Shown piece by piece: positions 2,161-16,694 of a stretch of DNA of 64,000 nucleotides (position 1 is its first letter; every line of letters starts with the position of its first letter). A model generated the notes under the pieces. It had not been told where the DNA came from and did not search any database. It was given only the letters and a program-made list of their open reading frames with translations. The stretch spans positions 12,780 through 76,779 of the forward strand of contig JAPLME010000002.1 in NCBI GenBank assembly GCA_026387175.1, read 5' to 3'. The stretch is from Candidatus Omnitrophota bacterium. GTDB taxonomy: Bacteria; Omnitrophota; Gorgyraeia; 2-01-FULL-45-10. Position numbers and translations under genes: made by a program.

Positions 2161-2220
2161 GTTGGGAATAAAGAGTTTTTTTGTCGGAATTGTTTACGCT
2201 TAAGTTGGGAAATAGGAATT

Positions 2221-2322: not shown

Positions 2323-2387
2323 AAGAGTACCTATACAGCATGCCGTCTCTAAAACGAAACAAACGGCATCGGCCCGTCAATTTATAG

Positions 2388-2906: not shown

Positions 2907-2923
2907 AATAGCTGAAAATCATT

Positions 2924-3502: not shown

Positions 3503-3519
3503 ACTAAATAAGAAAGAAT

Positions 3520-3563
3520 GGTGGCATATTCGAAGGTGCCACCCTCAAAGCGCAGACTGGCAC
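3520..3563 (+). repeat. Intergenic repeat family 2, copy B: nested hairpins GGTGGCA..TGCCACC and GTGCCACCCTCAAAGCGCAGACTGGCAC
   Basis: 25 of 28 nt identical to the hairpin at 2221-2248. Confidence 0.6.
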
Positions 3564-3607
3564 TAAGTAGCATGACACCAAAAGAACATAAAAAGAAGGA
3601 GGAGTAA

Positions 3608-3712
3608 ATGGGCGATAAAGGCAAGAAGGATAAGGATAAACACAACAAGCAAGCAGAGCAAGCAAAGAACGAAGCAAACAAGAAGAAACAGCCAACAATC
3701 AAGCATACTTGA
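3608..3712 (+). CDS. small lysine-rich peptide (34 aa, MGDKGKKDKDKHNKQAEQAKNEANKKKQPTIKHT)
   Basis: Strong SD AAGGAGGAG 5 nt upstream of the ATG. Below the 60-aa cutoff of the ORF track. Could be a low-complexity artefact. Confidence 0.3.
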   Translation: MGDKGKKDKDKHNKQAEQAKNEANKKKQPTIKHT

Positions 3713-3779
3713 GATTCGGCAAGCACTAAAGCTGAGGATCTGTTGAAGTAAGAGTCAAATAACAGACGTCCTATAAAGT

Positions 3780-3840
3780 GACACCCTGATAATAGGGTGC
3801 TACAAAGTAGGATGTCTACAAGATGCGTAGGCTGGCACTA
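3780..3840 (+). repeat. Intergenic repeat family 2, copy C: hairpin GACACCCTGATAATAGGGTGC plus a TGGCAC-containing segment
   Basis: Shares the GCTGGCACTA motif with copies A and B. Confidence 0.4.
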
Positions 3841-3872
3841 TTTAGGATGGTACCAAAAGAATTTAACATACA

Positions 3873-4625
3873 ATGCTTGAATTCTTAGCACCATTAATAT
3901 TTATCTGTATTATCTTCTTCCTATTCAGGATTCTTTTCCTCAGTTGGGTATCCGGCGAGGAGGGGGTAGCTAGGAAGCTTGAGTCCTTGCGAAGAATAAA
4001 CAAAGAATACCACCCATTCAATAATATCATATTGAAAACTCCAGATGGAACTACGCAGATCGATCATATATTAATATCTCCTTACGGAATATTTGTAATT
4101 GAAACTAAAGATTTTAAAGGATGGATTTTTGGTGATGCACATCAAAAGAAATGGACTCAATCTCTTTTTGGCTCCAGACGCTCTTCTATTAAGTACCAAT
4201 TTCAGAATCCGATCCGCCAAAATTATAAGCATGTAAAGGCCGCTCAAGACTTCCTAGATATTGATTCGAAATCCATATTTAATGTGGTCGTATTTACTGG
4301 AACGAGCGAATTTAAGACAGATATGCCAGAAAATGTTTTAAAATTGCATGATCTTCTCCCATGTATTAAACTCCAAACAAAAATATTATTTACTAGTGAA
4401 AAAGTAGAAGCGCTTTCGCAAAAACTTAGGGATTACGTTGAACACGCTTCCTATAATGAGGAAGATCATTTTAAAAACATTGTAAATAATATGATGCATC
4501 CAATCTGTCCCAGATGTGGCAAGCCGATGGTTCTTCGAAAGGCGAGAAAGGGGGCTGGGGCAGGTTCCGAATTTTGGGGATGCCCCAATTTTCCCGAATG
4601 CAGGATAACAAAGAACGTGGCCTAA
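3873..4625 (+). CDS. NERD (nuclease-related domain) protein with C-terminal topoisomerase-type C4 zinc ribbon
   Basis: DHILISPYGIFVIETKDFKG NERD core. CPRCG...GCPNFPEC zinc ribbon. Confidence 0.75.
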   Translation: MLEFLAPLIFICIIFFLFRILFLSWVSGEEGVARKLESLRRINKEYHPFNNIILKTPDGTTQIDHILISPYGIFVIETKDFKGWIFGDAHQKKWTQSLFGSRRSSIKYQFQNPIRQNYKHVKAAQDFLDIDSKSIFNVVVFTGTSEFKTDMPENVLKLHDLLPCIKLQTKILFTSEKVEALSQKLRDYVEHASYNEEDHFKNIVNNMMHPICPRCGKPMVLRKARKGAGAGSEFWGCPNFPECRITKNVA

Positions 4626-4675
4626 CGAAAACCAAGGAATAATTAGGCCAGCGCCCATTAAATAAAGGAGACCAC

Positions 4676-4747
4676 ATGCCCGAAGGAGGATTCTTAGTAA
4701 AGATTAACGGCAAGGAGCTGTGCCGTTGTTATGCGATAGCGTTCTGA
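4676..4747 (+). CDS. possible 23-aa peptide MPEGGFLVKINGKELCRCYAIAF
   Basis: AAGGAG SD 7 nt upstream of the ATG. Very short, so speculative. Confidence 0.15.
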   Translation: MPEGGFLVKINGKELCRCYAIAF

Positions 4748-4804
4748 AGATACCGAAAGCATAGCCATCGAAATTGAATAAACTATTAGGGCGGCCGTAA
4801 AAAT

Positions 4805-4856
4805 GGGACAGTCCCGACCTCGCTGAGATTACGGTCCCGGGACAGTCCCTATTTTT
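4805..4856 (+). terminator. Rho-independent terminator formed by two copies of the palindrome GGGACAGTCCC followed by TATTTTT
   Basis: Same GGGACWGTCCC pair occurs at 25969-26022. Confidence 0.5.
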
Positions 4857-4857
4857 C

Positions 4858-4954
4858 CACCGTAACCCGTGCTATGGCGCGGGTTTTTTATTGGAATTAT
4901 TTTAAAATAGTTTGCAACTATTTTGGCACTTTTAGCGTCTTTATATGTAGGGGG
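4858..4954 (+). repeat. Island repeat family 1, copy 1: CCCGTGCTAWGGCGCGGG hairpin + T-tract + TATTTTAAAATA palindrome + TTTGCAACNATTTTGGCACTTTTAGCGTCTTTATATGTAGGGGG
   Basis: About 90% identical to 5951-6048 and 12888-12983. Confidence 0.85.
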
Positions 4955-5011
4955 ATAGATTTTAGCTCACCAACAAGAGTTGTTAGGAACAAAAAAGTTT
5001 AAGTTAATGTA

Positions 5012-5040
5012 TTGACAATGTAACTACAAAATGATATTCT
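5012..5040 (+). promoter_or_regulatory. sigma70-like promoter TTGACA-N17-TATTCT upstream of the BrnA-like gene
   Basis: Consensus -35 box and 17-nt spacer. Confidence 0.45.
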
Positions 5041-5076
5041 ATCCAAAAGATATTATAAAGAAAGGCGGCGATAAAA

Positions 5077-5424
5077 ATGAGGAAGAAAATGCCGGAATTT
5101 AAATCAGAAGAAGAGGAGGCGCTTTTTTGGAGCAAACACAGCCCCCTCGATTACCCTGATGAAGCTAAAGCGGCAGAAAAACCTTTCGAATTTGCTATGT
5201 ATCTTCTTAAGCGCGCCGCAAAAGAACACAAAGAGAAAAAGCGTTTGCTGACATTTAGAATGGAGCAAAGCCAAATATTGCTGGCAAAGATTATTGCTAA
5301 AAAATATGGCGATAATTATCAAAGTTTGTTACGGAAATGGATCAGGGAACGAATTTATGAAGAGATAAAAGGAAATCCAAATATCGCAAAGGATGTTAGG
5401 AAGCAGAATTTGCGATTGGTATAA
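5077..5424 (+). CDS. BrnA-like antitoxin (RHH-type, type II TA antitoxin family); orphan, with no BrnT-like toxin upstream
   Basis: N-terminal MPEFKSEEEEALFWSKHSPLDY is the BrnA signature. 115 aa. Confidence 0.6.
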   Translation: MRKKMPEFKSEEEEALFWSKHSPLDYPDEAKAAEKPFEFAMYLLKRAAKEHKEKKRLLTFRMEQSQILLAKIIAKKYGDNYQSLLRKWIRERIYEEIKGNPNIAKDVRKQNLRLV

Positions 5425-5498
5425 GACAGAGAAATAGGTAATAACGGGGCCATCCTGCGCGGGGACACCCTAGATTGCAGGCTACCTCCAGATAACAT

Positions 5499-5918
5499 AT
5501 GAAAATACTAACCGAAAAGATCAGAGTAGATACTAAAGAAGCGAAGGATCTCGTAAATATAACGGGTGAGGTCGCGGATATCCTGAAGGGCTCGGGCCTT
5601 AAAAAGGGGAATGTCACAGTGTTTGTAGTCGGTTCGACCGCGGCCATAACGACATTCGAATACGAGAACGGCATGATAAAGGATATGCAGGATCTCTGCG
5701 AGAAGCTGGTGCCGTCAAATAAGCATTATAATCACGATGAGACCTGGGGAGACGCGAACGGATTCAGCCACCTTAGGGCCGCTCTCTTTGGCCCATCGCT
5801 CACGATACCGTTCGAAGGCGGCAAGCTGTCTCTCGGCACATGGCAGCAGGTGGTCCTGGCGGAATTCGATAACCGTCCGCGTAATCGCGAGATAATTGTT
5901 CAGATGATAGGGGAGTAA
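5499..5918 (+). CDS. yjbQ: YjbQ/UPF0047 family protein (secondary thiamine-phosphate synthase-like)
   Basis: Full-length similarity to YjbQ. Motifs NHDETWGD, HLRAALFGPSLTIPFEGGKLSLGTWQ. Confidence 0.85.
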   Translation: MKILTEKIRVDTKEAKDLVNITGEVADILKGSGLKKGNVTVFVVGSTAAITTFEYENGMIKDMQDLCEKLVPSNKHYNHDETWGDANGFSHLRAALFGPSLTIPFEGGKLSLGTWQQVVLAEFDNRPRNREIIVQMIGE

Positions 5919-5950
5919 CTTGTAAGAACCCGGAATTATAAACCGTGTAA

Positions 5951-6048
5951 GACCGCAACCCGTGCTAAGGCGCGGGTTTTTTATTTTGAACTATTTTAAA
6001 ATAGTTTGCAACAATTTTGGCACTTTTAGCGTCTTTATATGTAGGGGG
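5951..6048 (+). repeat. Island repeat family 1, copy 2
   Basis: See 4858-4954. Confidence 0.85.
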
Positions 6049-6134
6049 TATTATGGTGAATTCGCCATAATTAGAAGCCAGATTAGCCTGAATAAAACAG
6101 AAAGGTAGCAATATGAAGAATTTGAAAGGACCTA

Positions 6135-7157
6135 ATGCTTAATAATTACCACATTTTTTTATCGAGTTTAAAGGAAAAGATACGAAAAGAGCGCTTGCGG
6201 GTTGTTCTCGCAAGCAATGCGGCGTTAGTGATGTTGTATTGGGATATAGGCCGGAGTATATTGAAAAAACAAAATGAAGAAGGATGGGGCTCAAGGGTTA
6301 TTGACCGGCTTTCATCGGATTTAAGCAGAGAATTCCCGGATATGAAAGGATTTTCACCAAGAAATCTAAAATATATGCGCTCGTTCGGTATCGCATGGCC
6401 GGATAAGCTAATTGTGCAACGGGTCATTGCACAATTACCATGGCGCAGTAACATAGCTTTAATAGATAAGCTTAAAAAGCCCGAAGAACGTTTATGGTAT
6501 GCGATGAAAACCATAAAGCATGGCTGGTCGCAACCGATTCTTTGTTTACAGATAGAGGCACAAGCTCATAAGCGTGAGGGTAAGGCAACCAATAATTTTT
6601 CACTGGCACTTACATCGGTTGACTCGGATATGGCCAAAGAGGTATTCAAGGATCCATATTTATTCGATTTTTTAGGAACCGCCGATATACGCAGAGAAAA
6701 AGAAGTTGAACAGGCATTGGTGGATCATATACAACGATTCTTGCTGGAATTGGGGCAGGGATTCGCTTTTGTTGGCAGACAGGTTCATCTTGAGCTTGGT
6801 GGAAATGATTATTATATTGATTTGCTTTTTTATCACCTTAAATTGAGGTGCTACATAATTATTGAACTTAAGGCAGGAGATTTTGTCCCGGAATATGTGG
6901 GAAAGATGAACATGTATCTAAGCGTTGTGGATGATATTCTACGGCATCCTGATGATAACCCAAGCATTGGACTGTTGCTTGTAAAACGAAAAAACAAAAT
7001 GATCGCTGAATATGCTTTGAGTGGTTACACAAAACCTATAGGTGTAGCGCAGTGGGAAACAAAAATAACCAAAAGCTTACCTAAAGAACTTAAGTCGAAC
7101 CTTCCAGCTATTGAAGAGATCGAGAAAGAGTTAAGTAAGGGCAAATTTATGCCATAA
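6135..7157 (+). CDS. YhcG/DUF1016 family PD-(D/E)xK nuclease-like protein
   Basis: YIDLLFYHLKLRCYIIIELKAGDF is the characteristic DUF1016 core. Confidence 0.8.
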   Translation: MLNNYHIFLSSLKEKIRKERLRVVLASNAALVMLYWDIGRSILKKQNEEGWGSRVIDRLSSDLSREFPDMKGFSPRNLKYMRSFGIAWPDKLIVQRVIAQLPWRSNIALIDKLKKPEERLWYAMKTIKHGWSQPILCLQIEAQAHKREGKATNNFSLALTSVDSDMAKEVFKDPYLFDFLGTADIRREKEVEQALVDHIQRFLLELGQGFAFVGRQVHLELGGNDYYIDLLFYHLKLRCYIIIELKAGDFVPEYVGKMNMYLSVVDDILRHPDDNPSIGLLLVKRKNKMIAEYALSGYTKPIGVAQWETKITKSLPKELKSNLPAIEEIEKELSKGKFMP

Positions 7158-7163
7158 TTACCC

Positions 7164-7198
7164 CATGGCGCGGGTTTTTTATTGGAATTATTTTACAT
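7164..7198 (+). repeat. Island repeat family 1, truncated copy 3 (hairpin remnant GGCGCGGG + TTTTTTATTGGAATTATTTTA only)
   Basis: Matches the left third of the full repeat. Confidence 0.6.
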
Positions 7199-7250
7199 AT
7201 GGTGAACAGAATAAGGCAGGTTAAAGCGAAAAAAGCTAGATATCTTTCTA

Positions 7251-7278
7251 TTGACTTAACGGAATTCTGTGCTATAAT
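7251..7278 (+). promoter_or_regulatory. Consensus sigma70 promoter TTGACT-N16-TGnTATAAT; -10 ends 9 nt before ATG 7287
   Basis: Near-perfect -35/-10 boxes. No SD between the promoter and the start codon, which implies a leaderless transcript. Confidence 0.6.
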
Positions 7279-7286
7279 CATCTACA

Positions 7287-10200
7287 ATGATTACCTATAA
7301 GCATAGATATAACCTACTATTTAAAGCTATCGCAGCAGCTGTAGTGTTTCTATTTGTAGCTAATGACATAGCCTGGACTCAGCTTTCCAATTGTGACTCT
7401 TCGAAAAGTTCTACACTTGCCCCCCTTGCAGGTAATCCTCAAGTATATAGCGCAATGCGCCAGATGATGGAAGAAGAACGTGTTCTACACCGGGAAGACA
7501 TGGATGAGGTCATAGAACGGCACGCTAAGAATGCAAAGGATCTATTCGATGCTTCCTCTCTAGAAGATCTCAAGAAAGAGTTTATGGAGCGCATTGTTGA
7601 TTGCGGCGCTAATAACATGCTGTCAAGGCTAAAGGCAACACTAGCTTCCACGGGAGGACAGGTTCAGGTCATATTCGTGAAGAGTGAAGATGAGCTGCCG
7701 GTATTTGAAGGAAAGAAAGTGTGGGGGCATGCCGGCACTTCCGTTACAGCATTTGCATTAGAAAGCGAGAAGGATTCAAAAGAAGGAAGAAGAGAGATAA
7801 TCGCAAGGCTCTTTCACGAGATAAGGGCGAGATCGACCTTAGCCGGTGAATTCGCGAACCTTACTTTTGCCACCCATGTAAATGCCATTAATAGAATTCC
7901 GCCGGTTACGGAAGCGAAGCCCGTGCCGCAGGCTATCGATATTACTAAACCCCTCCTTGTAGTTTTTGATCTGCATGGAACCCTCCTTAAGCCGAGCTGG
8001 AAAGAAGCTCACGCCTTAGCCTATGCAAAAATAAAAGATGTAAGCCAGGAAGAAGCGCTCATATGGCTGGAGAACCTTCCGCTTAAGCGCCTAAGATATG
8101 AGTTCATACAATTACTTTCCCAGGCCACCGGTGTTTCGGAGGCCAAGGCGCGAGAATATCTGAAATGGGCCCAGAAACACTGCGCGAGGATAAAGACGCC
8201 TGAGGTTATGCCCGGAGCGTTGGAATTTATGGAGGCGTTATATAAAAAAGGCGTGCCTATGGTCATTATTAGCGGATCTAAGAGAGATGTTGTAATGGAT
8301 CAACTCAGAGAACGCGGGTTTCTCAAATTCATTCCTGCAGAGATGGTGGTCTCCAGGGATGATGTCGCGCTTTCCGCTCCTCGTGCTAAAAATGATTCAC
8401 GATTCCGTGAGGCCGCTATCGAAAGCTTAACATATAAATTTCAGGGTTACCGCCTCGCGCACTTTAATGACTGGGTCGGCGGCATCCGATCCGTGAAGAA
8501 GCGCGGGGGTATAGCCTTTGGCCTGCCACAGGGCGAAGGAGAGGAAAAGGATTTGAACAGCGCGGCTATGGAGAAAGAAGGCGCTGATTTAATGATAAAT
8601 GGATGGCATAACTGGAAGGAGATCCTGGCCGGTTTACAGATCAATGAGAAGTTACAAAAAGAAAATAGGCGAGTCCCGGTTTATCTTAAGAAGGCAAAGG
8701 AGCTGCAGCTTGTGCTTCCTGCCCGGCGGCCGGATAAGTTAACCCTATTTATCGATGTAAGCGATGACCTTAGAGAATTAACATATTATGAAGTGGAAGA
8801 TGACGACGGGGTGATGAGGTATGACGGCAGTATTGATTATGGCCGGCTTAAATTAAGAAAGATCTGCCGCTTACCTAGCTCTTATCTTATTTCTCCGGAA
8901 AGATACATGAATAAGCACCTTACCGGCGAGGCGAAGGCCAGTATTTACCGTGTCTGGCCTCAAGGTAAGCGCTATACGCGGTATCGTAATATCATTACCT
9001 CCTGGGACAAAGAGGTTGACAGAGATGTCTGGACGACAAATATCGATACTGTCTATCTGCACAAATGCATTGAAGATTCCGGACTTCTGGATTTCGGAGG
9101 TATCAGCCGCGCAATCGAAATAGGTACAGGCGGAGGGCATCTGTCTGTATTGCTTGCCTCCCGGATTCCCAACTTAAAAGAAATTATCATTACAGACATC
9201 AGCATGTACGCCCTAGAGGCAGCCAAGCGGGTTATCATGCCCTTCATGAATAAAGGCTTGCGCCTGCGGACCTATTTAGGCAAAGGTTTAGGCACGATAA
9301 GGGAGGCAAAAGCGGATCTGGTCGTTGTCAATCCGCCGTATATTCCCACCCCGCCATTTATACAAGGCCGGCACGTCGATCCTTACCGCGGCACCGGCCT
9401 GATCAGGGAAGTGCTGGAGAAAGGGATCTATAAACTCAATCCCAAAAATCCAAATGCCTGTATCGTTATGAATGTAAGTTCAATGGCGCAAAAACAATTT
9501 CAGGAATATACCCGGGAGTTCGGCGATAACCTTACGGTGGAGAAATTCGGCGAGCCGCTCAGGGTGCCTCTTAAAATCAGCGGTATCACCGATGAGTGGC
9601 GACAATGGCTGGTTAATGAGGGAGGATTGGAATATAGTCCGAATTGCGCGGAAGACGAAGAGCCGTATCATCACACGCTTCAGGCTTATATTATCAAGCC
9701 AAGATCGGGAGCGGTGAAGACCTGGGCGGTAAAAGAGAAGGATAAGATAGAGTCGAATATTTATACGGATACAGACGCAATGATCAGGCTATTCCGGCCG
9801 CTATTGAATCCGCAAGCCACCCCGGAAGAGAATGAATTAAAGTTAAGATTCCCCGAGATCTACGGCTATCTCCTGCTGCGCCCGGAGGAGATGAATTTTG
9901 ACGCCGCGCCGGCCCCACTCGCGCCGGAAAGAAATCTGACGTTTACCAATCATATCCTTAAGCGCGGGTTTGGCAGGAAATTACTTGGTTTAGAGAATGA
10001 GGATTTTGAACTATTTCAAAAGGGACTCGGGGTCCAGGAGGCAGAATTCACGCGCCTATGCCGGATCGTCAGCGCCCTAAAAGATACCGATATTCTTCCT
10101 TATATCCGCTGCGCATTTCTTTATCATGATGTGGCTAAGGCGCAGCTGCCGGAATTAAAGAAAGAGTGGGAAAAGCTTCCCGGAATCGATTTCCGTATTT

Positions 10201-12803
10201 CGAATAAGGCCTCGGCGATAATTTTGCGTAACTTGTCTTCTCGGGCAAGCCGGAGAAAGGGGCTGTTTGAAAATATCGATCTGTTTAACAAGCACCCACA
10301 CAATGAAATTTTAAATGAATTCTTCTATCGTATTATTGAGACCCGCGGTTTTGCCGGACAGCAAATAAGGGGGGAGCTTTCTTACGATGTGTTTGAGGAT
10401 TTCACCCGATGGATACGCGACAACTTTTCAGAACTTCAAACTGCGCTTGGGTTTGAAAATAGAGACGCTCAGGCATGCTCCGATGGGATAACAGATATAA
10501 TATATCTTTTCAATTTCATTGATGCGGCGAGTTTGCGCGAAGGCCTGATGACCACGCGGCTAAACGAGAAGTTCCGGGAATTCTTCGCTGATTTCCGGAA
10601 GGTGATCACACCTTCTGCCGGCAATTTACCGGTTAACTGGCGGAATATATTGTCCGACCGCTGGAATGACTTTAGGACGACCTATGACCAGCGCAATTAT
10701 TTGAAGGATCGCCTAGGCCGGTTCCGCCAGGAGAGGCGCGATCTGGGCGAGAATGAATCGGAATTAAATGAATTTATCGATTCGATGAGCCCCGAGGCAG
10801 TTAAAGTTTTGACGCGGGATCTACAGCATTTTCAGGGTTGGTATGTGGAGAGCGCAACCTTTGGACTGACCCCGGAGGCGATGCTGAAGATCGTAATGCT
10901 TTCCATTGTCCTGGCAAAGCGTAAAGGCGCGGATTTGACCCGGCCATTTCATGTTAATTTCTTTAATCTTATGCGCATGCTTTCATCCGACCGGCACGAT
11001 TTTGATTCTTACCGCATCCGGATGGTTGAAACATTAGTGCGCGACCTTGATCTCGACGATATCATCCTAAAACCGGAGGTTGCCGGCCGCTTAGATCTAG
11101 ACGCCGATGATCAGTCGCGAGCCCAGCCGTTATTGGGTGCCGTGAGCATGGCGGTTAACGGTACGAAGTCCATCTCTTTCGATTTCCATTTCAGCGAAGA
11201 GGCGGAACACCTCCTCCACCTGGTGCATAAATACGAAAAGAGCGATTCGGTGAAATTCCACCAGGTCTTAAAGTTGCTCCTGGACGCCTATGGTATCCGT
11301 AAAGATGAATTTGACCGTGTAAGCAATGAAGCCTCATATCTTAATACTATGGCCTTATCCAAAAATGACAAGACGCGCTTATTGCGTTACGGAAAAGGCC
11401 CAGTTTGGGTGGATATCGGACCGGCGGACGGGGTAACCCTGGAGATCGCCGAGATGATGAAAGAAGAGAAAGGCCTTGAGAATATCGTCGCGGTGGAAAA
11501 ATCGCAGGAAGCGATTAACGCCCTGCGAAGAAGAATAAAACTAAAGAGTCTCTCCGCCATGGCTTTAAAAGGGGATGCCCGCGATTTGACGGATATTTTG
11601 GAGAATGCCGGAATTAAGTCCTCGAATACTATCATTTTTTCCGCCGTGCTGCATGAGATTTTCAGTTACGCCGGTAAAGACGGCCGCAGTTTTAATATTG
11701 AGACGGTAAAAGATGTGTTGCGTGCCGCGCTGCGCTCTCTCGCGCCCGGCGGCCGGCTTTTAATCCGCGACGGGCTTATTCCCGAAGATGGCGAAGAGAC
11801 GCAGATCTTGGAGTTAAAAGGCAGGAACAATAAAGAGGTCTTTGACTATTATGTAAGGAACTTTGCCGGCAGGGACCTCTCCCGCGCGTATGAGGTAATC
11901 GACGAGGATACATCAGGCGAGATTTATCGCATTCGCATGAAACGCAAGGACGTGATGGAATTTCTCTTTACGCTTACCTGGTGCTATCGGCCGCAATTTA
12001 GCCCTGACAGCCTGCCATATGAGGTAAGGGAACAGTATGGTGTCTTAACGCGAAGCGGTTATATTAAACTTATTCAGGAACTTGCCCGCGAAGAGAATAT
12101 AGACATGCGCGAAGTCGAAATGCCGGAAGATGAACGAACCTATATTCAGCAGGGCTATGTCGATAACCTGAAAGGAATCGCCCGGCTGATGACGCTCGAT
12201 GGCAAGGAAGCCCCCTTGCCGCCCAGCAATATGATGATCGTTGTAGAAAAAACCGATAAGGCTATGCCGCCGCCGATCGCGTTTGAAAAAGAGTGGGAGG
12301 CGTCGCGGTTGGATGCCGGCCAATTCCTTTCGGCGCTGTCTCCTATACTTGGATTAGAAACGGTTATAGACCATAATAAACCGATATTTGTATTTTCGGA
12401 AAAAGTCGCGTTCGATAATAATCTGGTAAGATGTCTTCCGAAACTTGCGGAGAAAGATATAAAGGTAGCGGTAATAGTCAAGGCTGATAATTATAAGGCA
12501 AAGGCTTTGATAGACAAATTGAATGAGGGCAAGACTGAGGATAAAAAGATCCTCCAGGCCGACACAATTGATGGTATAAGAAAAGCGGCGGCAGACGCAA
12601 AGATCTCCGCGCCAAGATTTTATTATTTCAGGATAAAAGATAGCGAAGATCCGGCATTTGAAGGACGCAATATCACGATGTATGATTTGACGCCTGATAT
12701 GGTCAAAAGAATAATAGACGCTATCGGCACTGCTTGCGGCGTAGAAATTGAGAAACTCCCGCTCCTTCAAGAACTAGCGCATAAGTTTGCGGAAGCCGCA
12801 TAA
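7287..12803 (+). CDS. Giant 1838-aa multidomain protein with N-terminal hydrophobic anchor. Domains: HAD-like hydrolase (VVFDLHGTLL / ISGSKRD / FNDWVGG); gamma-class NPPY methyltransferase, HemK/PrmC-like (IEIGTGGGHLSVLL ... VVVNPPYIP); weak HD-like motif (AFLYHDVAK); second class-I SAM methyltransferase (VWVDIGPADGVTLEIAE ... IIFSAVLHEI ... LAPGGRLLIRD)
   Basis: Uninterrupted 5.5-kb ORF. Motifs read directly from the translation. Confidence 0.8.
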   Translation: MITYKHRYNLLFKAIAAAVVFLFVANDIAWTQLSNCDSSKSSTLAPLAGNPQVYSAMRQMMEEERVLHREDMDEVIERHAKNAKDLFDASSLEDLKKEFMERIVDCGANNMLSRLKATLASTGGQVQVIFVKSEDELPVFEGKKVWGHAGTSVTAFALESEKDSKEGRREIIARLFHEIRARSTLAGEFANLTFATHVNAINRIPPVTEAKPVPQAIDITKPLLVVFDLHGTLLKPSWKEAHALAYAKIKDVSQEEALIWLENLPLKRLRYEFIQLLSQATGVSEAKAREYLKWAQKHCARIKTPEVMPGALEFMEALYKKGVPMVIISGSKRDVVMDQLRERGFLKFIPAEMVVSRDDVALSAPRAKNDSRFREAAIESLTYKFQGYRLAHFNDWVGGIRSVKKRGGIAFGLPQGEGEEKDLNSAAMEKEGADLMINGWHNWKEILAGLQINEKLQKENRRVPVYLKKAKELQLVLPARRPDKLTLFIDVSDDLRELTYYEVEDDDGVMRYDGSIDYGRLKLRKICRLPSSYLISPERYMNKHLTGEAKASIYRVWPQGKRYTRYRNIITSWDKEVDRDVWTTNIDTVYLHKCIEDSGLLDFGGISRAIEIGTGGGHLSVLLASRIPNLKEIIITDISMYALEAAKRVIMPFMNKGLRLRTYLGKGLGTIREAKADLVVVNPPYIPTPPFIQGRHVDPYRGTGLIREVLEKGIYKLNPKNPNACIVMNVSSMAQKQFQEYTREFGDNLTVEKFGEPLRVPLKISGITDEWRQWLVNEGGLEYSPNCAEDEEPYHHTLQAYIIKPRSGAVKTWAVKEKDKIESNIYTDTDAMIRLFRPLLNPQATPEENELKLRFPEIYGYLLLRPEEMNFDAAPAPLAPERNLTFTNHILKRGFGRKLLGLENEDFELFQKGLGVQEAEFTRLCRIVSALKDTDILPYIRCAFLYHDVAKAQLPELKKEWEKLPGIDFRISNKASAIILRNLSSRASRRKGLFENIDLFNKHPHNEILNEFFYRIIETRGFAGQQIRGELSYDVFEDFTRWIRDNFSELQTALGFENRDAQACSDGITDIIYLFNFIDAASLREGLMTTRLNEKFREFFADFRKVITPSAGNLPVNWRNILSDRWNDFRTTYDQRNYLKDRLGRFRQERRDLGENESELNEFIDSMSPEAVKVLTRDLQHFQGWYVESATFGLTPEAMLKIVMLSIVLAKRKGADLTRPFHVNFFNLMRMLSSDRHDFDSYRIRMVETLVRDLDLDDIILKPEVAGRLDLDADDQSRAQPLLGAVSMAVNGTKSISFDFHFSEEAEHLLHLVHKYEKSDSVKFHQVLKLLLDAYGIRKDEFDRVSNEASYLNTMALSKNDKTRLLRYGKGPVWVDIGPADGVTLEIAEMMKEEKGLENIVAVEKSQEAINALRRRIKLKSLSAMALKGDARDLTDILENAGIKSSNTIIFSAVLHEIFSYAGKDGRSFNIETVKDVLRAALRSLAPGGRLLIRDGLIPEDGEETQILELKGRNNKEVFDYYVRNFAGRDLSRAYEVIDEDTSGEIYRIRMKRKDVMEFLFTLTWCYRPQFSPDSLPYEVREQYGVLTRSGYIKLIQELAREENIDMREVEMPEDERTYIQQGYVDNLKGIARLMTLDGKEAPLPPSNMMIVVEKTDKAMPPPIAFEKEWEASRLDAGQFLSALSPILGLETVIDHNKPIFVFSEKVAFDNNLVRCLPKLAEKDIKVAVIVKADNYKAKALIDKLNEGKTEDKKILQADTIDGIRKAAADAKISAPRFYYFRIKDSEDPAFEGRNITMYDLTPDMVKRIIDAIGTACGVEIEKLPLLQELAHKFAEAA

Positions 12804-12887
12804 TCTCCGGTCTTTAATCATCGGACGACAATTTATGTAATTTAGTTTTTTTGTTACATTTGCATAACATATAGGATGATGAGAGAA

Positions 12888-12983
12888 ACCGCAACCCGTG
12901 CTAAAGCGCGGGTTTTTTTATTGGAATTATTTTAAAATAGTTTGCAACAATTTTGGCACTTTTAGCGTCTTTATATGTAGGGG
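12888..12983 (+). repeat. Island repeat family 1, copy 4
   Basis: See 4858-4954. Confidence 0.85.
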
Positions 12984-13016
12984 ATGAAACGACTATATAT
13001 AAAAAAGGAGGCAAAT

Positions 13017-13520
13017 ATGAAGAATCTAATACCTCGGGAGGTTATTGAGAAGAAGATATATCTCATCAGAGGGCGAAATGTAATGCTGTCCAGTGATTTA
13101 GCAAATCTCTATGGCGTAGAAACAAAAAACCTGAATTTACAAGTTAAGAGAAACATAAAACGTTTTCCCAGGGATTTCATGTTTCAAGTGACTAAGGAAG
13201 AAAACTTGAGGTTGCAATTTGCAACCTCAAGTTATGGTGGACGCAGATATTTGCCATATGTATTTACGGAGCAGGGCATCGCGATGCTTTCAGGCATACT
13301 CAATAGCGAACGTGCTATCGAGGTGAATATAGCTATTATGCGGGCGTTTGTGCGATTGAGGGAGATTTTGCTGACACATAAGGACCTCGCCGATAAAATT
13401 GCAGCTCTTGAACTTAAGTATAAAAATCATGATCTGAGGCTTTCGGAATATGATAAGCACATAACGGCCATTTTTGATGCGATCCGACAGCTTATGGCAC
13501 CACCGTCAGAACTCCCTTAA
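13017..13520 (+). CDS. ORF6N/KilA-N domain protein (phage antirepressor-like DNA-binding domain)
   Basis: LQFATSSYGGRRYLPYVFTEQGIAMLSGIL ORF6N core. Start moved to ATG 13017, which has the AAAAAGGAGG SD. The track's start at 12984 lies inside the repeat. Confidence 0.8.
   Translation: MKNLIPREVIEKKIYLIRGRNVMLSSDLANLYGVETKNLNLQVKRNIKRFPRDFMFQVTKEENLRLQFATSSYGGRRYLPYVFTEQGIAMLSGILNSERAIEVNIAIMRAFVRLREILLTHKDLADKIAALELKYKNHDLRLSEYDKHITAIFDAIRQLMAPPSELP
13204..13230 (+). repeat. Perfect 13-1-13 palindrome CTTGAGGTTGCAA-T-TTGCAACCTCAAG inside the ORF6N coding sequence
   Basis: Second near-identical copy at 21930-21954. Confidence 0.7.
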
Positions 13521-13707
13521 TTCCACTACTCTTTGGGTTGTTTTTTGATATAATATGATACATAGACATGGCAATATTCTGGCCAAAGAAAGGTGATTAT
13601 GCGAATAATTGATGCCATATCATTAGGTATCGGTTCTTTCGGAGTCATTTAACTAAGATGAAGATAAGAAGCGGTGTTCTCGGAACCAAAAAGACGGCGG
13701 GCAATAT

Positions 13708-16620
13708 ATGAGCCGAAAGACGCCGCTCAGGACAGCCTTTTTAACCATTTCCATATTTCTCCTATGTTTTTCCGCCTGCGCCTACGAAGCCAAGACCCAC
13801 GGCAAGAGCGCGCGGTTGGCCTCAGAGCTTGTCCAGAGAACAGACTCCCTCAATATCTATAAAGAGCTTTACGACAGAGGTTACGCCAGCCAGATAATGG
13901 CGGGAGCCGAGGCAGGCGATTTCGGCAATGTCGACGGCAATAACCGTTCCTTCCGTCATTACTACGACCCCTACGCAAACACCTCCCAAAAAGGCCTCAA
14001 GTATTTCGATTATTATCAATTATGGGCCCATTTCGATGTCATAAAGAACCTTATCTGGCAGTCGCAGGGCAGGTGGATCGATGATATGGAGATCACGCCG
14101 CCCAAGAGCGGTTATTACGACGATGCGCTCGAGTGGGCCAGGAATAGCGCCGGCGCCGCCGATATGATGAACTGGGAAGGCGCGCTTCGCGTTTACGACT
14201 ATACGACGAGCTCGCGCGGCCAGGCCTATCGCAGGCTGGGCTATGTTTCGCATCTGGCGGCGGATATGGCGCAGCCGGACTACGTCTTTGGCTATCCCCA
14301 TCCGGGCTCGAGCTACCGCCGCGAGGAGGGAGGGAAAGTCTATTACGGCTTCGAAGCGCTGGTCGAGAATTACATCGACGATGTGGATTTTTCCGGGAAA
14401 GAGGTTAAGAAGCTCAGTTCTCTCGACGATTATTTTAACGAGATGGCGAGGGCCGCTAAGAGGACGGGCAGTCCCGCGCGTTACGTGCTTCCGCTGGGGC
14501 TTAAGACACAGACGCTTTCCGGCGCCAAGGATGTGGCCATTATCCCGGCGATAGACGACAGTAAACCGGGGGGACGTAAGAAATATCTGGATCTCGCCAG
14601 GGAACTTTTAGATCAAGCTGTCGAATATAATGCCGGCATACTGGAGCTATTTTACGATATCGTCAATCAGCCGCCTTATGTTGCGGACGTTACCGTTACC
14701 CAGAGCGGGGAAGGCCGCTATCATGGCTGGTATGAGGAGATGTATGACGATATCCGCGAACAGCTCGCGGGCGTGATCAATCCGGCGGTTTACAAGAGAG
14801 TATCCGCAAGGAGCCTGCGTAAAAAAGCCTCTCCGATAGATAGCGGCAAGAAAGCGCTTGTCCGCGTTACGTTCGGTCCGACTGAGGACATCGAAGAGCA
14901 TATCGATCCGGCGAGCGTTAAGGTCCTTGTCGGCGATATCGAGGTGCCAGGGGCCATGACCGGGCCGAGGACGTGGGAGGGCGAGTTCACTTATAATTTC
15001 GAATCCAAGGAGCCGGAGAAGACATTTCCCATAAAAATATCCGCCAAAGATATCCATAACCATTTTCCGCGCGCCGGCCTCTCCGCGCAAGGCTATGAAT
15101 TGGACTCGAATCCGGAAACACCGGCGAGGCTCTCCGGTTACGTGCCGCCCTATCCCTGGAAGGATTATGAGCCCGGGGCGGATGCTAACCATTCGATCGT
15201 GATACGGCAGATTGTCCCGCCTCCGATAGCGGAGTCGATAGAGGTATTTTCACAGGGCACATATTTTGTAAGATCGCGCTGGATAGCTCCCTCCGCGGCG
15301 GAAGCCCGAAAAGGCAAAGAGGCGCTCCTAGAAAAAGACTCTTCAGGCGTGAAGGACGGAGTGGAGCTCGGGAAGACCGACTCCGCGACGGTCAGGATCA
15401 CTTTTAGCCAGATAATGGACGATGGGACCCTGCGCCTTAAATTAGGCGGGGTCGATCTGCCGCTTTCCAAGACAGGTGAATTTACCTATGAAGCGATCAT
15501 CCCGCTGGAGGAATTTAACAGGCCCGGATCCGATCAGGCTTACAGATTTGAGATAACGGGTAAGGGGATATCGGGGCTTGAGCTTGACGCGCAGCCCGGG
15601 ACGGTCGCGGTCTTCAACGATAAAGCAAACCGTTGGATCGCCCTGGAATCCGGGCCGGATACGACGCATTCCCTGCGTATCTACGGGGAGTTCGGAAAGG
15701 CCGCACTTAAAGGCATCGTCCACGAGATGGAGCTCGTTTCTCCGTCCGGCCGCCCAGTGGCCGGCAAACCCCTCGCAGGATGGAACGTCGTCATATATGT
15801 CGGTTCGATAGAGGTCGATCAGTCTCTTTGCGAAGAGGCCCTGCGGCTCGCGCGTTTGGCGGGCATTGGGGAACATAAAGAAGACCCTAAGGCGTTAAAC
15901 CTCTTAAAGGATAAAGTGAAATCGTCGTGCCGCCTTCTTTACGGCACCATGCCGGGCTGGATCGTGAAGACCGACTCCGAAGGTAAATTTACGTTTCCTC
16001 TTTATAAGTATCCGGGGCTGGATGGAGTGATAGAGGCCTACTATACGTTCTTCGTATTTCCTCCCGATAATGTCGAAACCTACGATCCCCGTTCCATGGT
16101 TTCCGACACGCTGTCATGCGATATCTTTTTCCCGCGGGGCCGTTCGCGCAATTTAGACGACGTGTCTATCGAGATAGCGTTAACGGGAGAGAAGGGTGAT
16201 TATAAACAGTCGCCTGTTTTGAGCGTTTATGAGATAGGCGGGACGGTCTCCGGAGAGGAGATGGCCCCGCCGGTAAAAAACGGCTACACTACCGAAGTCC
16301 ATCTGATAAAACGCGGGCTCGATGAATCCAGGACCAAAGAGAGCGTAACTGCCTTAAGCGTCGATACGCATGACCGCCTTATCACAGGCGATCTCACCGA
16401 CCCGAAGAGCCATCAGCCGCCGTATAAGTTCAGGTTCAGCGAGAAGATCCCGGAGCACCTGGCGATCAACAGGTATGTGCGCATTTCCACCGGCAGCCTG
16501 GTGGTAAAGCCTGTAGGCGCGGGGCCTGTCTTATTCGAATTGAGCCCTAACGGGGACAGTAAAAAGTTCACGGACGAGGCCATAGATACATTGTGGAACA
16601 ATTTTACTGCGGGAAAATAA
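13708..16620 (+). CDS. large secreted protein or lipoprotein (970 aa), function unknown
   Basis: Signal peptide with LCFSAC lipobox-like site. Long ORF in the high-GC region. Confidence 0.7.
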   Translation: MSRKTPLRTAFLTISIFLLCFSACAYEAKTHGKSARLASELVQRTDSLNIYKELYDRGYASQIMAGAEAGDFGNVDGNNRSFRHYYDPYANTSQKGLKYFDYYQLWAHFDVIKNLIWQSQGRWIDDMEITPPKSGYYDDALEWARNSAGAADMMNWEGALRVYDYTTSSRGQAYRRLGYVSHLAADMAQPDYVFGYPHPGSSYRREEGGKVYYGFEALVENYIDDVDFSGKEVKKLSSLDDYFNEMARAAKRTGSPARYVLPLGLKTQTLSGAKDVAIIPAIDDSKPGGRKKYLDLARELLDQAVEYNAGILELFYDIVNQPPYVADVTVTQSGEGRYHGWYEEMYDDIREQLAGVINPAVYKRVSARSLRKKASPIDSGKKALVRVTFGPTEDIEEHIDPASVKVLVGDIEVPGAMTGPRTWEGEFTYNFESKEPEKTFPIKISAKDIHNHFPRAGLSAQGYELDSNPETPARLSGYVPPYPWKDYEPGADANHSIVIRQIVPPPIAESIEVFSQGTYFVRSRWIAPSAAEARKGKEALLEKDSSGVKDGVELGKTDSATVRITFSQIMDDGTLRLKLGGVDLPLSKTGEFTYEAIIPLEEFNRPGSDQAYRFEITGKGISGLELDAQPGTVAVFNDKANRWIALESGPDTTHSLRIYGEFGKAALKGIVHEMELVSPSGRPVAGKPLAGWNVVIYVGSIEVDQSLCEEALRLARLAGIGEHKEDPKALNLLKDKVKSSCRLLYGTMPGWIVKTDSEGKFTFPLYKYPGLDGVIEAYYTFFVFPPDNVETYDPRSMVSDTLSCDIFFPRGRSRNLDDVSIEIALTGEKGDYKQSPVLSVYEIGGTVSGEEMAPPVKNGYTTEVHLIKRGLDESRTKESVTALSVDTHDRLITGDLTDPKSHQPPYKFRFSEKIPEHLAINRYVRISTGSLVVKPVGAGPVLFELSPNGDSKKFTDEAIDTLWNNFTAGK

Positions 16621-16665: not shown

Positions 16666-16694
16666 TTGCCTTGATGGCAAACATCCTGTATAAT
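16666..16694 (+). promoter_or_regulatory. Promoter with palindromic operator TTGCCTTGATGGCAA over the -35 box, 8 nt upstream of TGTATAAT
   Basis: Same architecture at 28329-28357. Confidence 0.55.

What the first reader, a model, noticed from the sequence alone, without database searches (positions are those of the whole stretch)
7251..12803. Giant 1838-aa HAD + NPPY-methyltransferase + HD-like + SAM-methyltransferase fusion protein in a defence island, expressed leaderless from a consensus promoter
A single ORF fuses four things: a HAD-superfamily phosphatase-like domain with a variant motif I (DLHGT); a gamma-class methyltransferase carrying the NPPY motif of HemK/PrmC glutamine-N5 and N6-adenine methyltransferases; a second class-I SAM methyltransferase; and a weak HD-like YHDVAK motif. 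An N-terminal hydrophobic anchor precedes them. The gene is the largest in the accessory island, sits between nuclease and toxin-antitoxin-like cassettes, and is bounded on both sides by the island repeat. Its promoter is near-perfect (TTGACT-N16-TGnTATAAT) and sits 9 nt from the ATG. No combination of phosphatase plus two methyltransferases in one polypeptide is known to me. By analogy it could act on nucleic-acid ends, as in T4 Pnkp (HAD phosphatase) plus Hen1 (methyltransferase) RNA repair, or in cap-like 5' end processing. It could instead be a new modification or defence enzyme. ArfB, a GGQ protein of the class HemK enzymes methylate, is present elsewhere in the window, which is a loose alternative link. 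The domain hypothesis is unverified.
Basis: partly seen in the sequence, partly recalled or inferred. Interest (0 to 1): 0.85.

Follow-up and report, generated by a model that had tools for sequence, protein, structure and literature searches.

The report
Omnitrophota capped multi-enzyme export protein
The 1838-residue gene is real and does fuse a phosphatase-like domain to two methyltransferases, but its notable feature is that it belongs to a previously undescribed Omnitrophota family whose members share a promoter, an export signal and both protein ends while carrying unrelated enzymes in the middle.

Summary
The ORF (7287-12803, 1838 aa) is confirmed. So are the HAD domain (motif I DLHGT), the NPPY methyltransferase, a second class-I methyltransferase, a single N-terminal hydrophobic segment and the near-consensus promoter 8 nt from the ATG. 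The HD-like call is not supported by HMMs.

The genome is a Candidatus Omnitrophota MAG. Homologues share only the first ~200 and last ~175 residues. Between these "caps" sit unrelated cargoes: SecA-like, MutS, GHKL ATPase, IMPase, radical SAM, CheR, GT4, GH77 and Fic. Caps can be 72-91% identical where the cargo cannot be aligned.

The 70 nt upstream are conserved at DNA level in 28 loci: GTTA-N6-AAAAAG-N15-TTGACTTAAC-N11/12-TATAAT-N6-11-ATG, with no SD. The N-terminus is a Sec-type signal with an AxA site. Proteins carrying this C-cap end in -[EQ][AS]A-COOH, with two exceptions (-VAA, -IAA).

The cargo (aa 485-1657) is itself a recurrent unit containing a PRK06922-like module.

Best reading: a co-regulated, leaderless, Sec-exported modular enzyme carrier of an episymbiotic or predatory phylum, a mid-size relative of the described Omnitrophota giant multi-enzyme proteins. 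It is not a defence or RNA-repair enzyme. The flanking low-GC Shedu/NERD/YhcG/ORF6N cassettes are compositionally distinct from it. Substrate and localisation remain inferred.

The parts
7220..7250 (+). Conserved upstream element (GTTAaag-cgAAAAAAG-ctAGaTATCTTTCTA) directly 5' of the -35 hexamer. It has partial dyad symmetry and is a candidate regulator-binding site.
   Evidence: The spacing GTTA-N6-AAAAAG-N15-TTG is the same in 9-10 loci found by protein similarity. In the 28-locus consensus, columns not fixed by the search pattern (G, T, TTT) carry 1.8-2.0 bits. The dyad-symmetry score is only about 0.65.
7251..7278 (+). Sigma-70-type promoter: TTGACT, 16-nt spacer, TGc-TATAAT. There are 8 nt to the ATG and no Shine-Dalgarno, so the mRNA is predicted to be leaderless or nearly so.
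   Evidence: It is the best of 12 promoter-like sites in the region (11/12 plus TG), although the total count of such sites is no higher than in shuffled sequence. The sequence is shown. The same promoter lies 6-11 nt (5-12 allowed by the search) from the ATG in 28 loci.
7287..12803 (+). Coding sequence of the 1838-aa capped-cargo protein.
7287..7379 (+). Extended Sec-type signal peptide or signal anchor (aa 1-31). It has a K/R-rich n-region (MITYKHRYNLLFK), an h-region (AIAAAVVFLFVA) and an A-W-T site aligned with the AWA/AFA/SFA/VLA sites of relatives.
   Evidence: It is the only strongly hydrophobic stretch, with net charge +3 before it and 0 after it. The same style of signal is found in 20 or more metagenome loci.
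7380..7907 (+). N-cap (aa ~32-207), with invariant WGHAG (aa 146-150) and HEIRARST (aa 177-184).
7956..8489 (+). HAD-superfamily domain (aa 224-401) with motif I DLHGT.
   Evidence: PF00702, PF13419 and PF12710 score above their cut-offs. The D-x-H-G-[TV] variant is conserved in P0083 and P0016.
9099..9569 (+). NPPY (gamma-type) SAM methyltransferase core (aa 605-761), with EIGTGGGH at aa 611 and NPPY at aa 682.
   Evidence: PF05175 matches at E 2e-9. PrmC/HemK models match only at 30-37 bits, far below their cut-offs. The PADLOC mad2 model matches at E 1e-19.
9702..10706 (+). Helical region (aa ~806-1140) containing YHDVAK. It is the N-terminal part of the conserved PRK06922-like unit, and its HD-fold status is unresolved.
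10704..12251 (+). PRK06922-like module (aa 1140-1655) with a class-I SAM methyltransferase core (aa 1376-1491; motif DIGPADG).
   Evidence: NF005379 matches at E 3e-79. PF08242 matches. It aligns with stand-alone proteins of ~690 aa from Firmicutes and ends at the same point they do.
12276..12800 (+). C-cap (aa 1664-1838): an alpha/beta Rossmannoid domain. The sequence FVFSEKVAF occupies the place of HAD motif I, and the protein ends in -KFAEAA-COOH.
12893..12914 (+). Intrinsic-terminator-like hairpin followed by a T-run, downstream of the gene. It is the first part of the 96-nt island repeat copy at 12888-12983.

Best explanation
The gene encodes one member of an Omnitrophota-restricted family of 'capped cargo' proteins.

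Every member has the same frame:
1. A conserved 5' cassette: an upstream element, a near-consensus sigma-70 promoter and an ATG 6-11 nt after the -10 hexamer with no SD, which implies leaderless translation.
2. An extended Sec-type signal peptide with an AxA site.
3. An N-cap with invariant WGHAG and HEIRARST motifs.
4. A variable block of enzymes.
5. A C-cap: a HAD-like Rossmannoid domain that lacks the catalytic Asp and ends in a free -[EQ][AS]A carboxy-terminus.

In this member the cargo is a HAD phosphatase-like domain (DxHxT), an NPPY amino-group methyltransferase and a PRK06922-type module (a helical domain plus a class-I methyltransferase).

Inferred mechanism: the family is co-regulated through the shared promoter and upstream element. 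The proteins are exported through Sec. The caps act as common handles for sorting, processing or docking, while the cargo acts outside the producer's cytoplasm, on or in the host or prey cell. Omnitrophota are reported to be episymbionts or predators.

What is shown: the ORF, the domains, the caps, the cargo swapping, the promoter conservation and the taxonomic restriction.

What is inferred: leaderless expression, export, cap function and site of action.

What is unknown: the substrate. Fusions of the same HAD and PRK06922-like units with NAPRTase and other NAD enzymes hint at a nucleotide or pyridine-nucleotide substrate.
For: Caps. Homologues P0002-P0015 match the query only at aa 1-~195 (49-61% identity) and aa ~1665-1838 (34-83% identity). 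HMMs place both caps at the termini in 27 proteins.

Cargo. It is unrelated between members: SecA, MutS_V, HATPase_c with a PEP-utilizer domain, IMPase, RsmB/PCMT, TrmB, and B12-radical SAM, CheR, TreT/GT4, GH77 and Fic. Caps are 72-91% identical where the cargo cannot be aligned.

Paralogues. Several occur within one MAG.

Distribution. The N-cap profile finds only 71 representatives among 1.84 billion proteins. All 14 genome loci are Omnitrophota MAGs, two of them labelled Planctomycetia.

5' cassette. It is conserved with fixed spacing in loci found by protein similarity. A DNA-pattern scan of metagenomes gave 53 hits. Of these, 26 have an ATG-initiated ORF 6-15 nt after the -10. Of those 26, 20 match the family signal and 11 carry the whole N-cap.

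Export. The protein has a single N-terminal hydrophobic segment, a positive n-region and conserved AxA-type sites.

C-terminus. 46 of 60 large family proteins end in Ala, against 4 of 33 window proteins.

Literature. Omnitrophota giant proteins carry the same domain pool (methyltransferase, HATPase, HAD, HD, radical SAM, divergent SecA), and 94% have a signal peptide or TM helices. They are discussed as secreted or membrane effectors (10.1101/2023.11.21.568195; 10.64898/2026.06.07.730766).
Against: - No signal-peptide or topology predictor was available, so export rests on sequence rules.
- The query's own site is A-W-T, not a canonical AxA.
- SAM- and ATP-dependent enzymes would lack cofactors in a periplasm, so export requires a further delivery step for which there is no direct evidence.
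- No secretion genes lie next to this gene. Only one of four homologue contexts has a secretin nearby.
- No transcript data support the transcription start site.
Confidence: 0.45

Rival explanations
1. It is a membrane-tethered, cytoplasm-facing enzyme scaffold. The N-terminal segment is an uncleaved anchor and the enzymes work in the producer's own cytoplasm at the inner membrane. The caps mediate oligomerisation or regulated turnover, for example with the C-terminal -AA acting as a ClpXP-type degron.
For: The cargo enzymes need SAM or ATP. One preprint reads 46% of giant Omnitrophota proteins as TM-only with cytoplasmic domains. The query's cleavage site is non-canonical (A-W-T). C-terminal Ala-Ala resembles ssrA-type degrons; this is my own knowledge and was not tested.
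Against: The positive n-region and the neutral to acidic flank after the single hydrophobic segment predict an N-in, C-out orientation. The h-region is 12-14 residues long, which is signal-peptide length. AxA-type sites are conserved at a fixed position across the family.
Confidence: 0.25
2. It is an anti-phage defence or modification enzyme that belongs functionally to the surrounding island, for example a DNA N6-adenine methyltransferase with accessory phosphatase activity.
For: The flanking genes match Shedu SduA (E 3e-82), PDC-S02 (E 9e-147) and PDC-S05 (E 2e-57). The NPPY region matches the MADS mad2 model at E 1e-19; Mad2 is the predicted N6 DNA methylase of MADS (10.1101/2023.03.30.534895). 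One homologue (MutS cargo) sits among recombinases, Dcm/Vsr and an RT.
Against: Only 142 of the 492 positions of the mad2 profile are matched, and no other mad genes are present. The gene's GC and GC3 differ from the island cassettes. Other family members lie next to LeuRS/ComEC, LptFG or polysaccharide genes. An exported protein could not methylate the cell's own DNA. The cargo is only one of many interchangeable cargoes.
Confidence: 0.1
3. It is an RNA-end repair or cap-like processing enzyme, or a PrmC-like methylase of GGQ release factors such as ArfB.
For: It combines a HAD-type phosphatase domain with methyltransferases. The NPPY motif is shared with PrmC/HemK.
Against: There is no kinase, ligase or Hen1-type domain in any search. 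The PrmC equivalog scores 36.6 bits against a cut-off of 199, and the L3 Gln methylase 30.6 against 230. The predicted export signal is incompatible with a cytoplasmic RNA or ribosome-factor substrate. Homologous units are fused to NAPRTase rather than to RNA enzymes.
Confidence: 0.05

Closest known systems
Omnitrophota giant multi-enzyme proteins (West-Roberts et al. 2023 preprint, 10.1101/2023.11.21.568195; Nielsen & Lui 2026 preprint, 10.64898/2026.06.07.730766)
   Same: Same phylum and same pool of enzyme domains: methyltransferase, HAD, HD, HATPase_c, radical SAM, divergent SecA and glycosyltransferases. Both have an N-terminal signal peptide or TM helices. Both raise the same puzzle of cytoplasm-type enzymes on an exported or membrane protein.
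   Different: Those studies treat proteins of >=10-30 kAA, whereas this one is 1.8 kAA. The text searched in those papers does not mention the conserved N-cap, the C-cap, the -AA carboxy-terminus or the shared promoter/leaderless cassette.
Type IX secretion cargo (Sec signal plus conserved C-terminal sorting domain)
   Same: The logic is the same: unrelated enzymes framed by an N-terminal Sec signal and a conserved C-terminal domain at the very end of the protein.
   Different: T9SS CTDs are ~80-100-aa Ig-like beta-sandwiches in Bacteroidota (PMC11285876 abstract). This C-cap is a ~175-aa alpha/beta Rossmannoid domain. No T9SS genes were seen. The resemblance is by analogy only.
Polymorphic toxin / modular effector families
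   Same: Constant trafficking modules are combined with swapped enzymatic modules. Paralogues with different payloads occur in one genome.
   Different: In polymorphic toxins the variable part is the C-terminal tip and is followed by an immunity gene. Here both ends are constant, the variable part is internal, and no conserved downstream gene exists (the 3' flanks are not conserved).
PRK06922 / NF005379 class-I SAM-dependent methyltransferase family (Bacillus/Paenibacillus, ~690 aa, function unknown)
   Same: aa 1140-1655 match the profile at E 3e-79. The match ends at the same C-terminal motif (LP[DP]S..[IL]V.EK) as the stand-alone proteins.
   Different: The score (267 bits) is below the equivalog cut-off (602). 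The Omnitrophota form has an extra ~330-aa N-terminal helical part with H...HD...D residues that the Firmicutes proteins lack. Here the unit is embedded in a capped, signal-bearing protein.
PrmC/HemK and gamma-class N6-adenine methyltransferases (e.g. MADS Mad2)
   Same: It has a SAM motif I plus the NPPY catalytic motif, as in amino-group methyltransferases.
   Different: It scores far below the PrmC and L3-methylase cut-offs. Only the catalytic core of Mad2 is matched. There are no partner genes and the substrate is unknown.

Membership tests
HAD superfamily (PF00702) | Profile match above the curated cut-off over the Rossmannoid core. | tested here: met
   PF00702 scores 39.4 bits (cut-off 26.4), PF13419 32.6 (23.8) and PF12710 28.3 (27), all at aa 224-401.
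HAD phosphatases (canonical phosphomonoesterases) | Motif I DxDx[TV], with the second Asp acting as general acid/base. | tested here: not met
   Motif I is D-L-H-G-T. The nucleophile Asp is present but the Asp+2 position is His. The variant is conserved in P0083 (DVHGT) and P0016 (DTHGV).
PrmC/HemK release-factor glutamine methyltransferase (TIGR03534) | Equivalog score above the cut-off; NPPY motif. | tested here: not met
   NPPY is present at aa 682, but the score is 36.6 bits against a cut-off of 199.1. Only profile positions 91-169 are matched.
MADS defence system (Mad2 N6 DNA methylase) | A full-length Mad2 match plus the other mad genes in the locus. | tested here: not met
   The PADLOC mad2 model matches at E 1e-19 but only over profile positions 291-432 of 492. 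No other mad hits occur among the neighbours.
PRK06922 (NF005379) methyltransferase | Equivalog score >=602 bits over the 677-position profile. | tested here: not met
   The score is 267 bits over profile positions 216-676. The region is homologous (26-32% identity to P0091-P0094) but is not an equivalog.
HD-domain phosphohydrolases (PF01966) | Profile match and an H...HD...D metal-binding pattern. | tested here: inconclusive
   Pfam gives no hit at E<=10 on aa 691-1140, and a profile search of the PDB gives nothing. In the Omnitrophota and Elusimicrobiota forms, H(NHILKR)...HD(YHDVAK)...D(NFIDAAS) are all kept. They are lost together in the Firmicutes forms, where HD becomes SE.
Omnitrophota capped-cargo family (defined here) | N-cap with WGHAG/HEIRARST directly after the signal peptide. 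| tested here: met
   A local HMM built from A1 matches aa 1-207 at E 2e-89. The invariant residues are present.
Omnitrophota capped-cargo family (defined here) | C-cap at the extreme C-terminus, ending in -[EQ][AS]A. | tested here: met
   A local HMM built from A2 matches aa 1664-1838 at E 5e-72. The protein ends in -KFAEAA.
Omnitrophota capped-cargo family (defined here) | Conserved 5' cassette: GTTA-N6-AAAAAG-N15-TTGACTTAAC-N11/12-TATAAT-N6-11-ATG. | tested here: met
   Window positions 7220-7289 fit the pattern with the same spacing as 27 other loci.
Omnitrophota giant proteins (>=10 kAA class of the preprints) | Length >=10,000 aa. | tested here: not met
   The protein is 1838 aa. The family ranges from ~450 to ~6000 aa.
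Sec-exported proteins | Cleavable signal peptide and extracytoplasmic location. | not testable with these tools
   Only rule-based evidence is available: net charge +3 in the n-region, a 12-aa h-region and an A-W-T site, with AxA in relatives. No SignalP or DeepTMHMM was available and there are no experimental data.
Zincin-like metallopeptidases (as a fold for the N-cap) | HExxH (or a variant) on the active-site helix, plus a significant fold match. | tested here: inconclusive

The most novel reading that the evidence does not exclude
The shared promoter/upstream element, the extended signal peptide, the N-cap and the C-terminal Rossmannoid cap with its invariant free -AA end together define a previously undescribed export and sorting pathway of Omnitrophota. 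The pathway would deliver interchangeable, cytoplasm-type (SAM/ATP-dependent) enzymes into or onto host cells. The capped units would be the building blocks, or small relatives, of the phylum's giant multi-enzyme proteins.
Probability: 0.2. Interest if true: 0.85.

Novelty: new variant of a known kind. Interest (0 to 1): 0.6.

Why it matters
Omnitrophota are abundant, ultra-small, host-dependent bacteria. Their large and giant multi-enzyme proteins are a recognised puzzle, because cytoplasm-type enzymes sit behind signal peptides.

This gene exposes a tractable, mid-size version of that puzzle. It has a clear grammar: one promoter cassette, one signal type, two constant caps and swappable enzyme cargo.

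That grammar provides:
- a search handle, as both a DNA pattern and two HMMs, for cataloguing the whole regulon in complete genomes;
- a candidate regulator-binding site;
- two small domains (the N-cap and the C-cap) that can be tested for sorting, docking or processing functions without handling 10-100-kAA proteins.

It also corrects the database annotation, which reads 'methyltransferase' and starts 56 codons too late.

Tried and rejected
- A word-index search with the N-cap alignment returned only short fragments. The exhaustive representative search replaced it.
- The AFDB50 Foldseek library was not available.
- HD domain: Pfam on sub-segments at E<=10, phmmer of aa 691-1668 against the PDB and a profile of the helical region against the PDB all found nothing.
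- A second copy of either cap in the 64-kb window: none by tblastn or by HMM.
- The window's GH77 protein (17151-20414) looked like a distant member because of its N-terminal signal style and its -LISA end. BLAST against all collected family proteins matched only the GH77 core, so I keep it as a weak lead.
- Giant proteins as fusions of capped units: I looked for C-cap remnants in front of internal N-caps (P0046, P0048, P0053, P0071) and found none.
- A hairpin reading of the upstream element: dyad complementarity averages only ~0.65 over 28 loci, so I describe it as a conserved element with partial symmetry.
- 3' flanks of family genes are not conserved.
- Contexts of PRK06922-like homologues in Paenibacillus, an unplaced contig and another Omnitrophota MAG gave no pathway clue.
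- Sigma-54 reading of the island repeat: the GG-GC spacing is wrong (checked by eye) and the idea was dropped.

Full report
OBSERVATION

The ORF is real: 7287..12803 on the + strand, ATG start, 1838 aa. It is 100% identical to an NCBI protein of a Candidatus Omnitrophica MAG annotated 'methyltransferase'. That entry starts at M57 (1782 aa). Homologues align from residue 1 at 49-59% identity, so the ATG at 7287 is the better start.

Domain searches confirm three of the four proposed domains.
- HAD: PF00702 matches aa 224-401 at E 1e-9, above its cut-off. PF13419 and PF12710 also score above their cut-offs.
- NPPY methyltransferase: PF05175 matches aa 608-688 at E 2e-9. The motifs EIGTGGGH and VVVNPPYIP are present.
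- Second class-I methyltransferase: PF08242 matches aa 1376-1491. It lies inside a larger match to NCBIfam NF005379 (PRK06922), aa 1140-1655, E 3e-79.

Motif I of the HAD domain is D-L-H-G-T. The same D-x-H-G-[TV] variant is kept in two other Omnitrophota proteins, so it is a conserved variant and not decay.

The 'HD-like' YHDVAK is not supported by HMMs. Pfam gives no hit at E<=10 on aa 691-1140, and neither PDB sequence search finds anything. An alignment shows that H...HD...D is kept in the Omnitrophota and Elusimicrobiota forms and lost together in the Firmicutes forms. I leave this unresolved.

The promoter is as described: TTGACT 7251-7256, a 16-nt spacer, TGc-TATAAT 7273-7278, then 8 nt to the ATG and no SD.

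The island repeat exists. Full copies lie at 4858, 5952 and 12888. Upstream of this gene only its 31-nt terminator part is present, at 7165-7195.

The neighbours are Shedu SduA, DUF4760, a C92 amidase, NERD, CopG, UPF0047, a YhcG nuclease and ORF6N.

WHAT IT REALLY IS

The decisive result came from the homologues. Apart from the identical database entry, the 14 best hits (P0002-P0015) match the query in only two places: aa 1-~195 (49-61% identity) and aa ~1665-1838 (34-83% identity).

Between these two 'caps' the proteins are unrelated. Cargoes include:
- SecA DEAD/PPXD, MutS_V, HATPase_c with a PEP-utilizer domain and a receiver, inositol monophosphatase, RsmB/PCMT-type and TrmB-type methyltransferases;
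- B12-radical SAM, CheR, TreT/GT4, GH77 and Fic.

Local HMMs built from the two caps place the N-cap at the start and the C-cap at the very end of 27 proteins. Cap pairs are 72-91% identical in proteins whose cargo cannot be aligned. For example P0005 (MutS cargo) against P0006 (GHKL ATPase cargo) gives N-cap 80% and C-cap 87%.

Single MAGs carry several paralogues with different cargo. The N-caps of L004/L006 are 71% identical and those of L008/L013 are 53% identical. L011 holds two adjacent members.

The family is small and restricted. An exhaustive profile search of 1.84 billion representatives found 71 proteins, of ~450-6000 aa apart from short fragments. All 14 loci in species-representative genomes are Omnitrophota MAGs, two of them labelled Planctomycetia. 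Neither cap has a Pfam or NCBIfam model.

THE 5' CASSETTE

The 70 nt upstream of the ATG are conserved at DNA level in family loci from different genomes. The pattern is GTTA-N6-AAAAAG-N15-TTGACTTAAC-N11/12-TATAAT-N6-11-ATG, with strictly fixed spacing and no SD. The 3' flanks are not conserved.

I used this pattern to scan metagenome contigs, which gave 53 hits.
- 26 have an ATG-initiated ORF of at least 50 aa starting 6-15 nt after the -10.
- 20 of those 26 match the family's N-terminal signal.
- 11 of them carry the whole N-cap.
- About nine, plus roughly four more judged by eye, have the same style of signal (MxxYKxxYSxLxKAIAxxLVCLFxxNDIAWA) followed by different domains.

In 28 non-redundant cassettes, positions not fixed by the pattern are nearly invariant...taGcTatcTTTcTa... 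and TG before the -10.

The trait extends to a wider superfamily that shares the signal peptide. The conserved element upstream of the -35 is a candidate regulator site. Its dyad symmetry is only moderate.

THE ENDS OF THE PROTEIN

The N-terminus has a K/R-rich n-region, a 12-14-residue h-region and small residues at positions -3 and -1 (VLA, SFA, ALA, AWA, AFA). The query has A-W-T. This is followed by the conserved xxDTLAPxxGNP.

This is the only strongly hydrophobic stretch in the protein (a borderline window near aa 1192 lies inside the methyltransferase module). The flanking charges predict an N-in, C-out orientation. By sequence rules this is a Sec signal peptide or a type II anchor. No predictor was available to test it.

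All 27 C-caps end in Ala; 25 fit -[EQ][AS]A, and two end in -VAA or -IAA. Of the 33 other large N-cap proteins, 19 also end in Ala, many with a second type of tail (LTG...ILP...L..L.xA). In the window only 4 of 33 proteins end in Ala. A free small-residue carboxy-terminus therefore looks like a recognised feature, for a sorting factor or a protease. That reading is inference.

THE CARGO OF THIS MEMBER

Residues 485-1657 are themselves a recurrent unit.
- P0089 (700 aa) matches aa 485-1182 at 61% identity. P0088 matches aa 539-1232.
- P0083 and P0086 combine the DxHxT HAD domain with aa ~820-1656 and lack the NPPY domain.
- P0085 (Omnitrophota, with its own signal peptide), P0087 (Elusimicrobiota) and P0090 carry aa ~800-1657.
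- The stand-alone Firmicutes PRK06922 proteins (~690 aa) cover aa ~1085-1655. They end at the same motif, exactly where the C-cap begins.

The NPPY domain is not a PrmC orthologue: it scores 36.6 bits against a cut-off of 199. Its best match anywhere is the catalytic core of the MADS Mad2 N6 methylase model at E 1e-19, covering only positions 291-432 of 492. Mad2's role comes from 10.1101/2023.03.30.534895.

The substrate is unknown. The only lead comes from fusions. The PRK06922-like unit is fused to NAPRTase in P0084. The DxHxT HAD domain sits in P0016 among nicotinamidase, QRPTase/NAPRTase, NAD synthase and NUDIX domains. This hints at a nucleotide or pyridine-nucleotide substrate and remains unverified.

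RELATION TO THE ISLAND

The flanking cassettes are defence-type: SduA at E 3e-82, PDC-S02 at E 9e-147 and PDC-S05 at E 2e-57. They are low in GC (38.7%, GC3 0.36-0.42). The giant gene has 47.7% GC and GC3 0.52, which is closer to the rest of the window (49%, GC3 0.61-0.65).

Homologues lie in varied contexts:
- next to a secretin, an AAA ATPase and TPR genes;
- between a polysaccharide cluster and LptFG;
- between LeuRS/ComEA and ComEC/PilZ;
- among serine recombinases, Dcm/Vsr and an RT.

Island association is therefore not a family property.

MECHANISM AND RIVALS

Best reading (about 0.45): this is a co-regulated, leaderless, Sec-exported modular enzyme carrier. The caps serve as common handles and the cargo acts outside the producer's cytoplasm, on or in the host. 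This fits what two preprints report for the phylum's giant proteins: the same domain pool, 94% with a signal peptide or TM helices, and nearby secretion or pilus genes.

The weak point is that SAM- and ATP-dependent enzymes need a cytoplasm. Export therefore implies a further delivery step that nothing here demonstrates.

The main rival (0.25) is a membrane-tethered, cytoplasm-facing scaffold whose -AA end might be a degron. The defence reading (0.1) and the RNA-repair or PrmC readings (0.05) have little support.

NOVELTY

Large multi-enzyme Omnitrophota proteins are known from preprints. The capped architecture, the invariant carboxy-terminus and the shared promoter/leaderless/signal cassette are not mentioned in the texts I searched. 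I therefore rate this as a new variant of a known kind, with interest 0.6.

Noticed in passing
window 4858-4953, 5952-6047, 12888-12983 (full copies) and 7165-7195 (partial): This is a 96-nt repeat made of a terminator-like hairpin (AACCCGTGCTAAGGCGCGGGTT plus a T-run) followed by ~60 conserved nt that run up to the start codons of small island genes (CopG-like, YhcG, ORF6N). It looks like a shared terminator-plus-leader unit between the defence cassettes.
   Followed up: partly
window 1279-7157 and 12984-13520: This is a low-GC (38.7%) block of defence-type genes. It holds Shedu SduA (PADLOC E 3e-82), DUF4760, a C92 amidase, NERD with a Top1 zinc ribbon, CopG, UPF0047, YhcG/DUF1016 (PDC-S02, E 9e-147) and ORF6N (PDC-S05, E 2e-57).
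   Followed up: partly
window 17151-20414: This 1087-aa GH77 (4-alpha-glucanotransferase) protein has an N-terminus (DKFILVAIVCLFLFSGVSYGLAPAPG) that resembles the family signal, and it ends in -LISA. A true family member (P0076) also carries GH77 cargo. BLAST found only the GH77 core in common, and the gene lacks the promoter cassette.
   Followed up: partly
window 16666-16694 and 28329-28357: A second repeated promoter-like element with an internal palindrome occurs twice in the window: TTGCCYTGAYGGCAAAYATCYTGTATAAT. The first copy overlaps the start of the response-regulator ORF (16671).
   Followed up: no
window 13708-16620: This 970-aa protein has no Pfam or PADLOC hit. Its N-terminus looks like a signal peptide or lipoprotein signal (MSRKTPLRTAFLTISIFLLCFSAC). 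It lies directly downstream of ORF6N and has core-like GC (54%).
   Followed up: no
window 7287-7454 (codons 1-56): The public annotation of the identical protein starts at M57. That start removes the signal peptide and the beginning of the N-cap. Homologues and the conserved promoter support the ATG at 7287.
   Followed up: yes
L011 2738-16078 and 16274-20236; proteins P0017, P0038, P0043, P0046, P0055, P0071: There is a second, 'type-B' conserved C-terminal tail (..LTG..F...ILP.....L..L.xA-COOH) on N-cap proteins that lack the type-A C-cap. Two adjacent paralogues in L011 both carry it. In some proteins the N-cap globular domain is internal (P0046 aa 2388-2543, P0048, P0053, P0071).
   Followed up: partly
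proteins P0084, P0083 and P0016 (homologues, not in the window): The PRK06922-like unit is fused to NAPRTase domains. The DxHxT HAD domain occurs in a 2961-aa protein full of NAD-biosynthesis domains (nicotinamidase, QRPTase/NAPRTase, NAD synthase, NUDIX). This is a possible clue to the substrate.
   Followed up: no
window 1198-1244 / 2264-2310 and 2221-2253 / 3536-3568: Two further short repeat pairs lie in the low-GC block. One is a GTGCCAC...TGGCAC hairpin-like unit between cassettes.
   Followed up: no
L075 (contig of P0085), 9660-16365: Another Omnitrophota protein carrying the PRK06922-like unit lies about 1.3 kb upstream of SpvB and TcdB/RHS toxin-complex-type genes.
   Followed up: no
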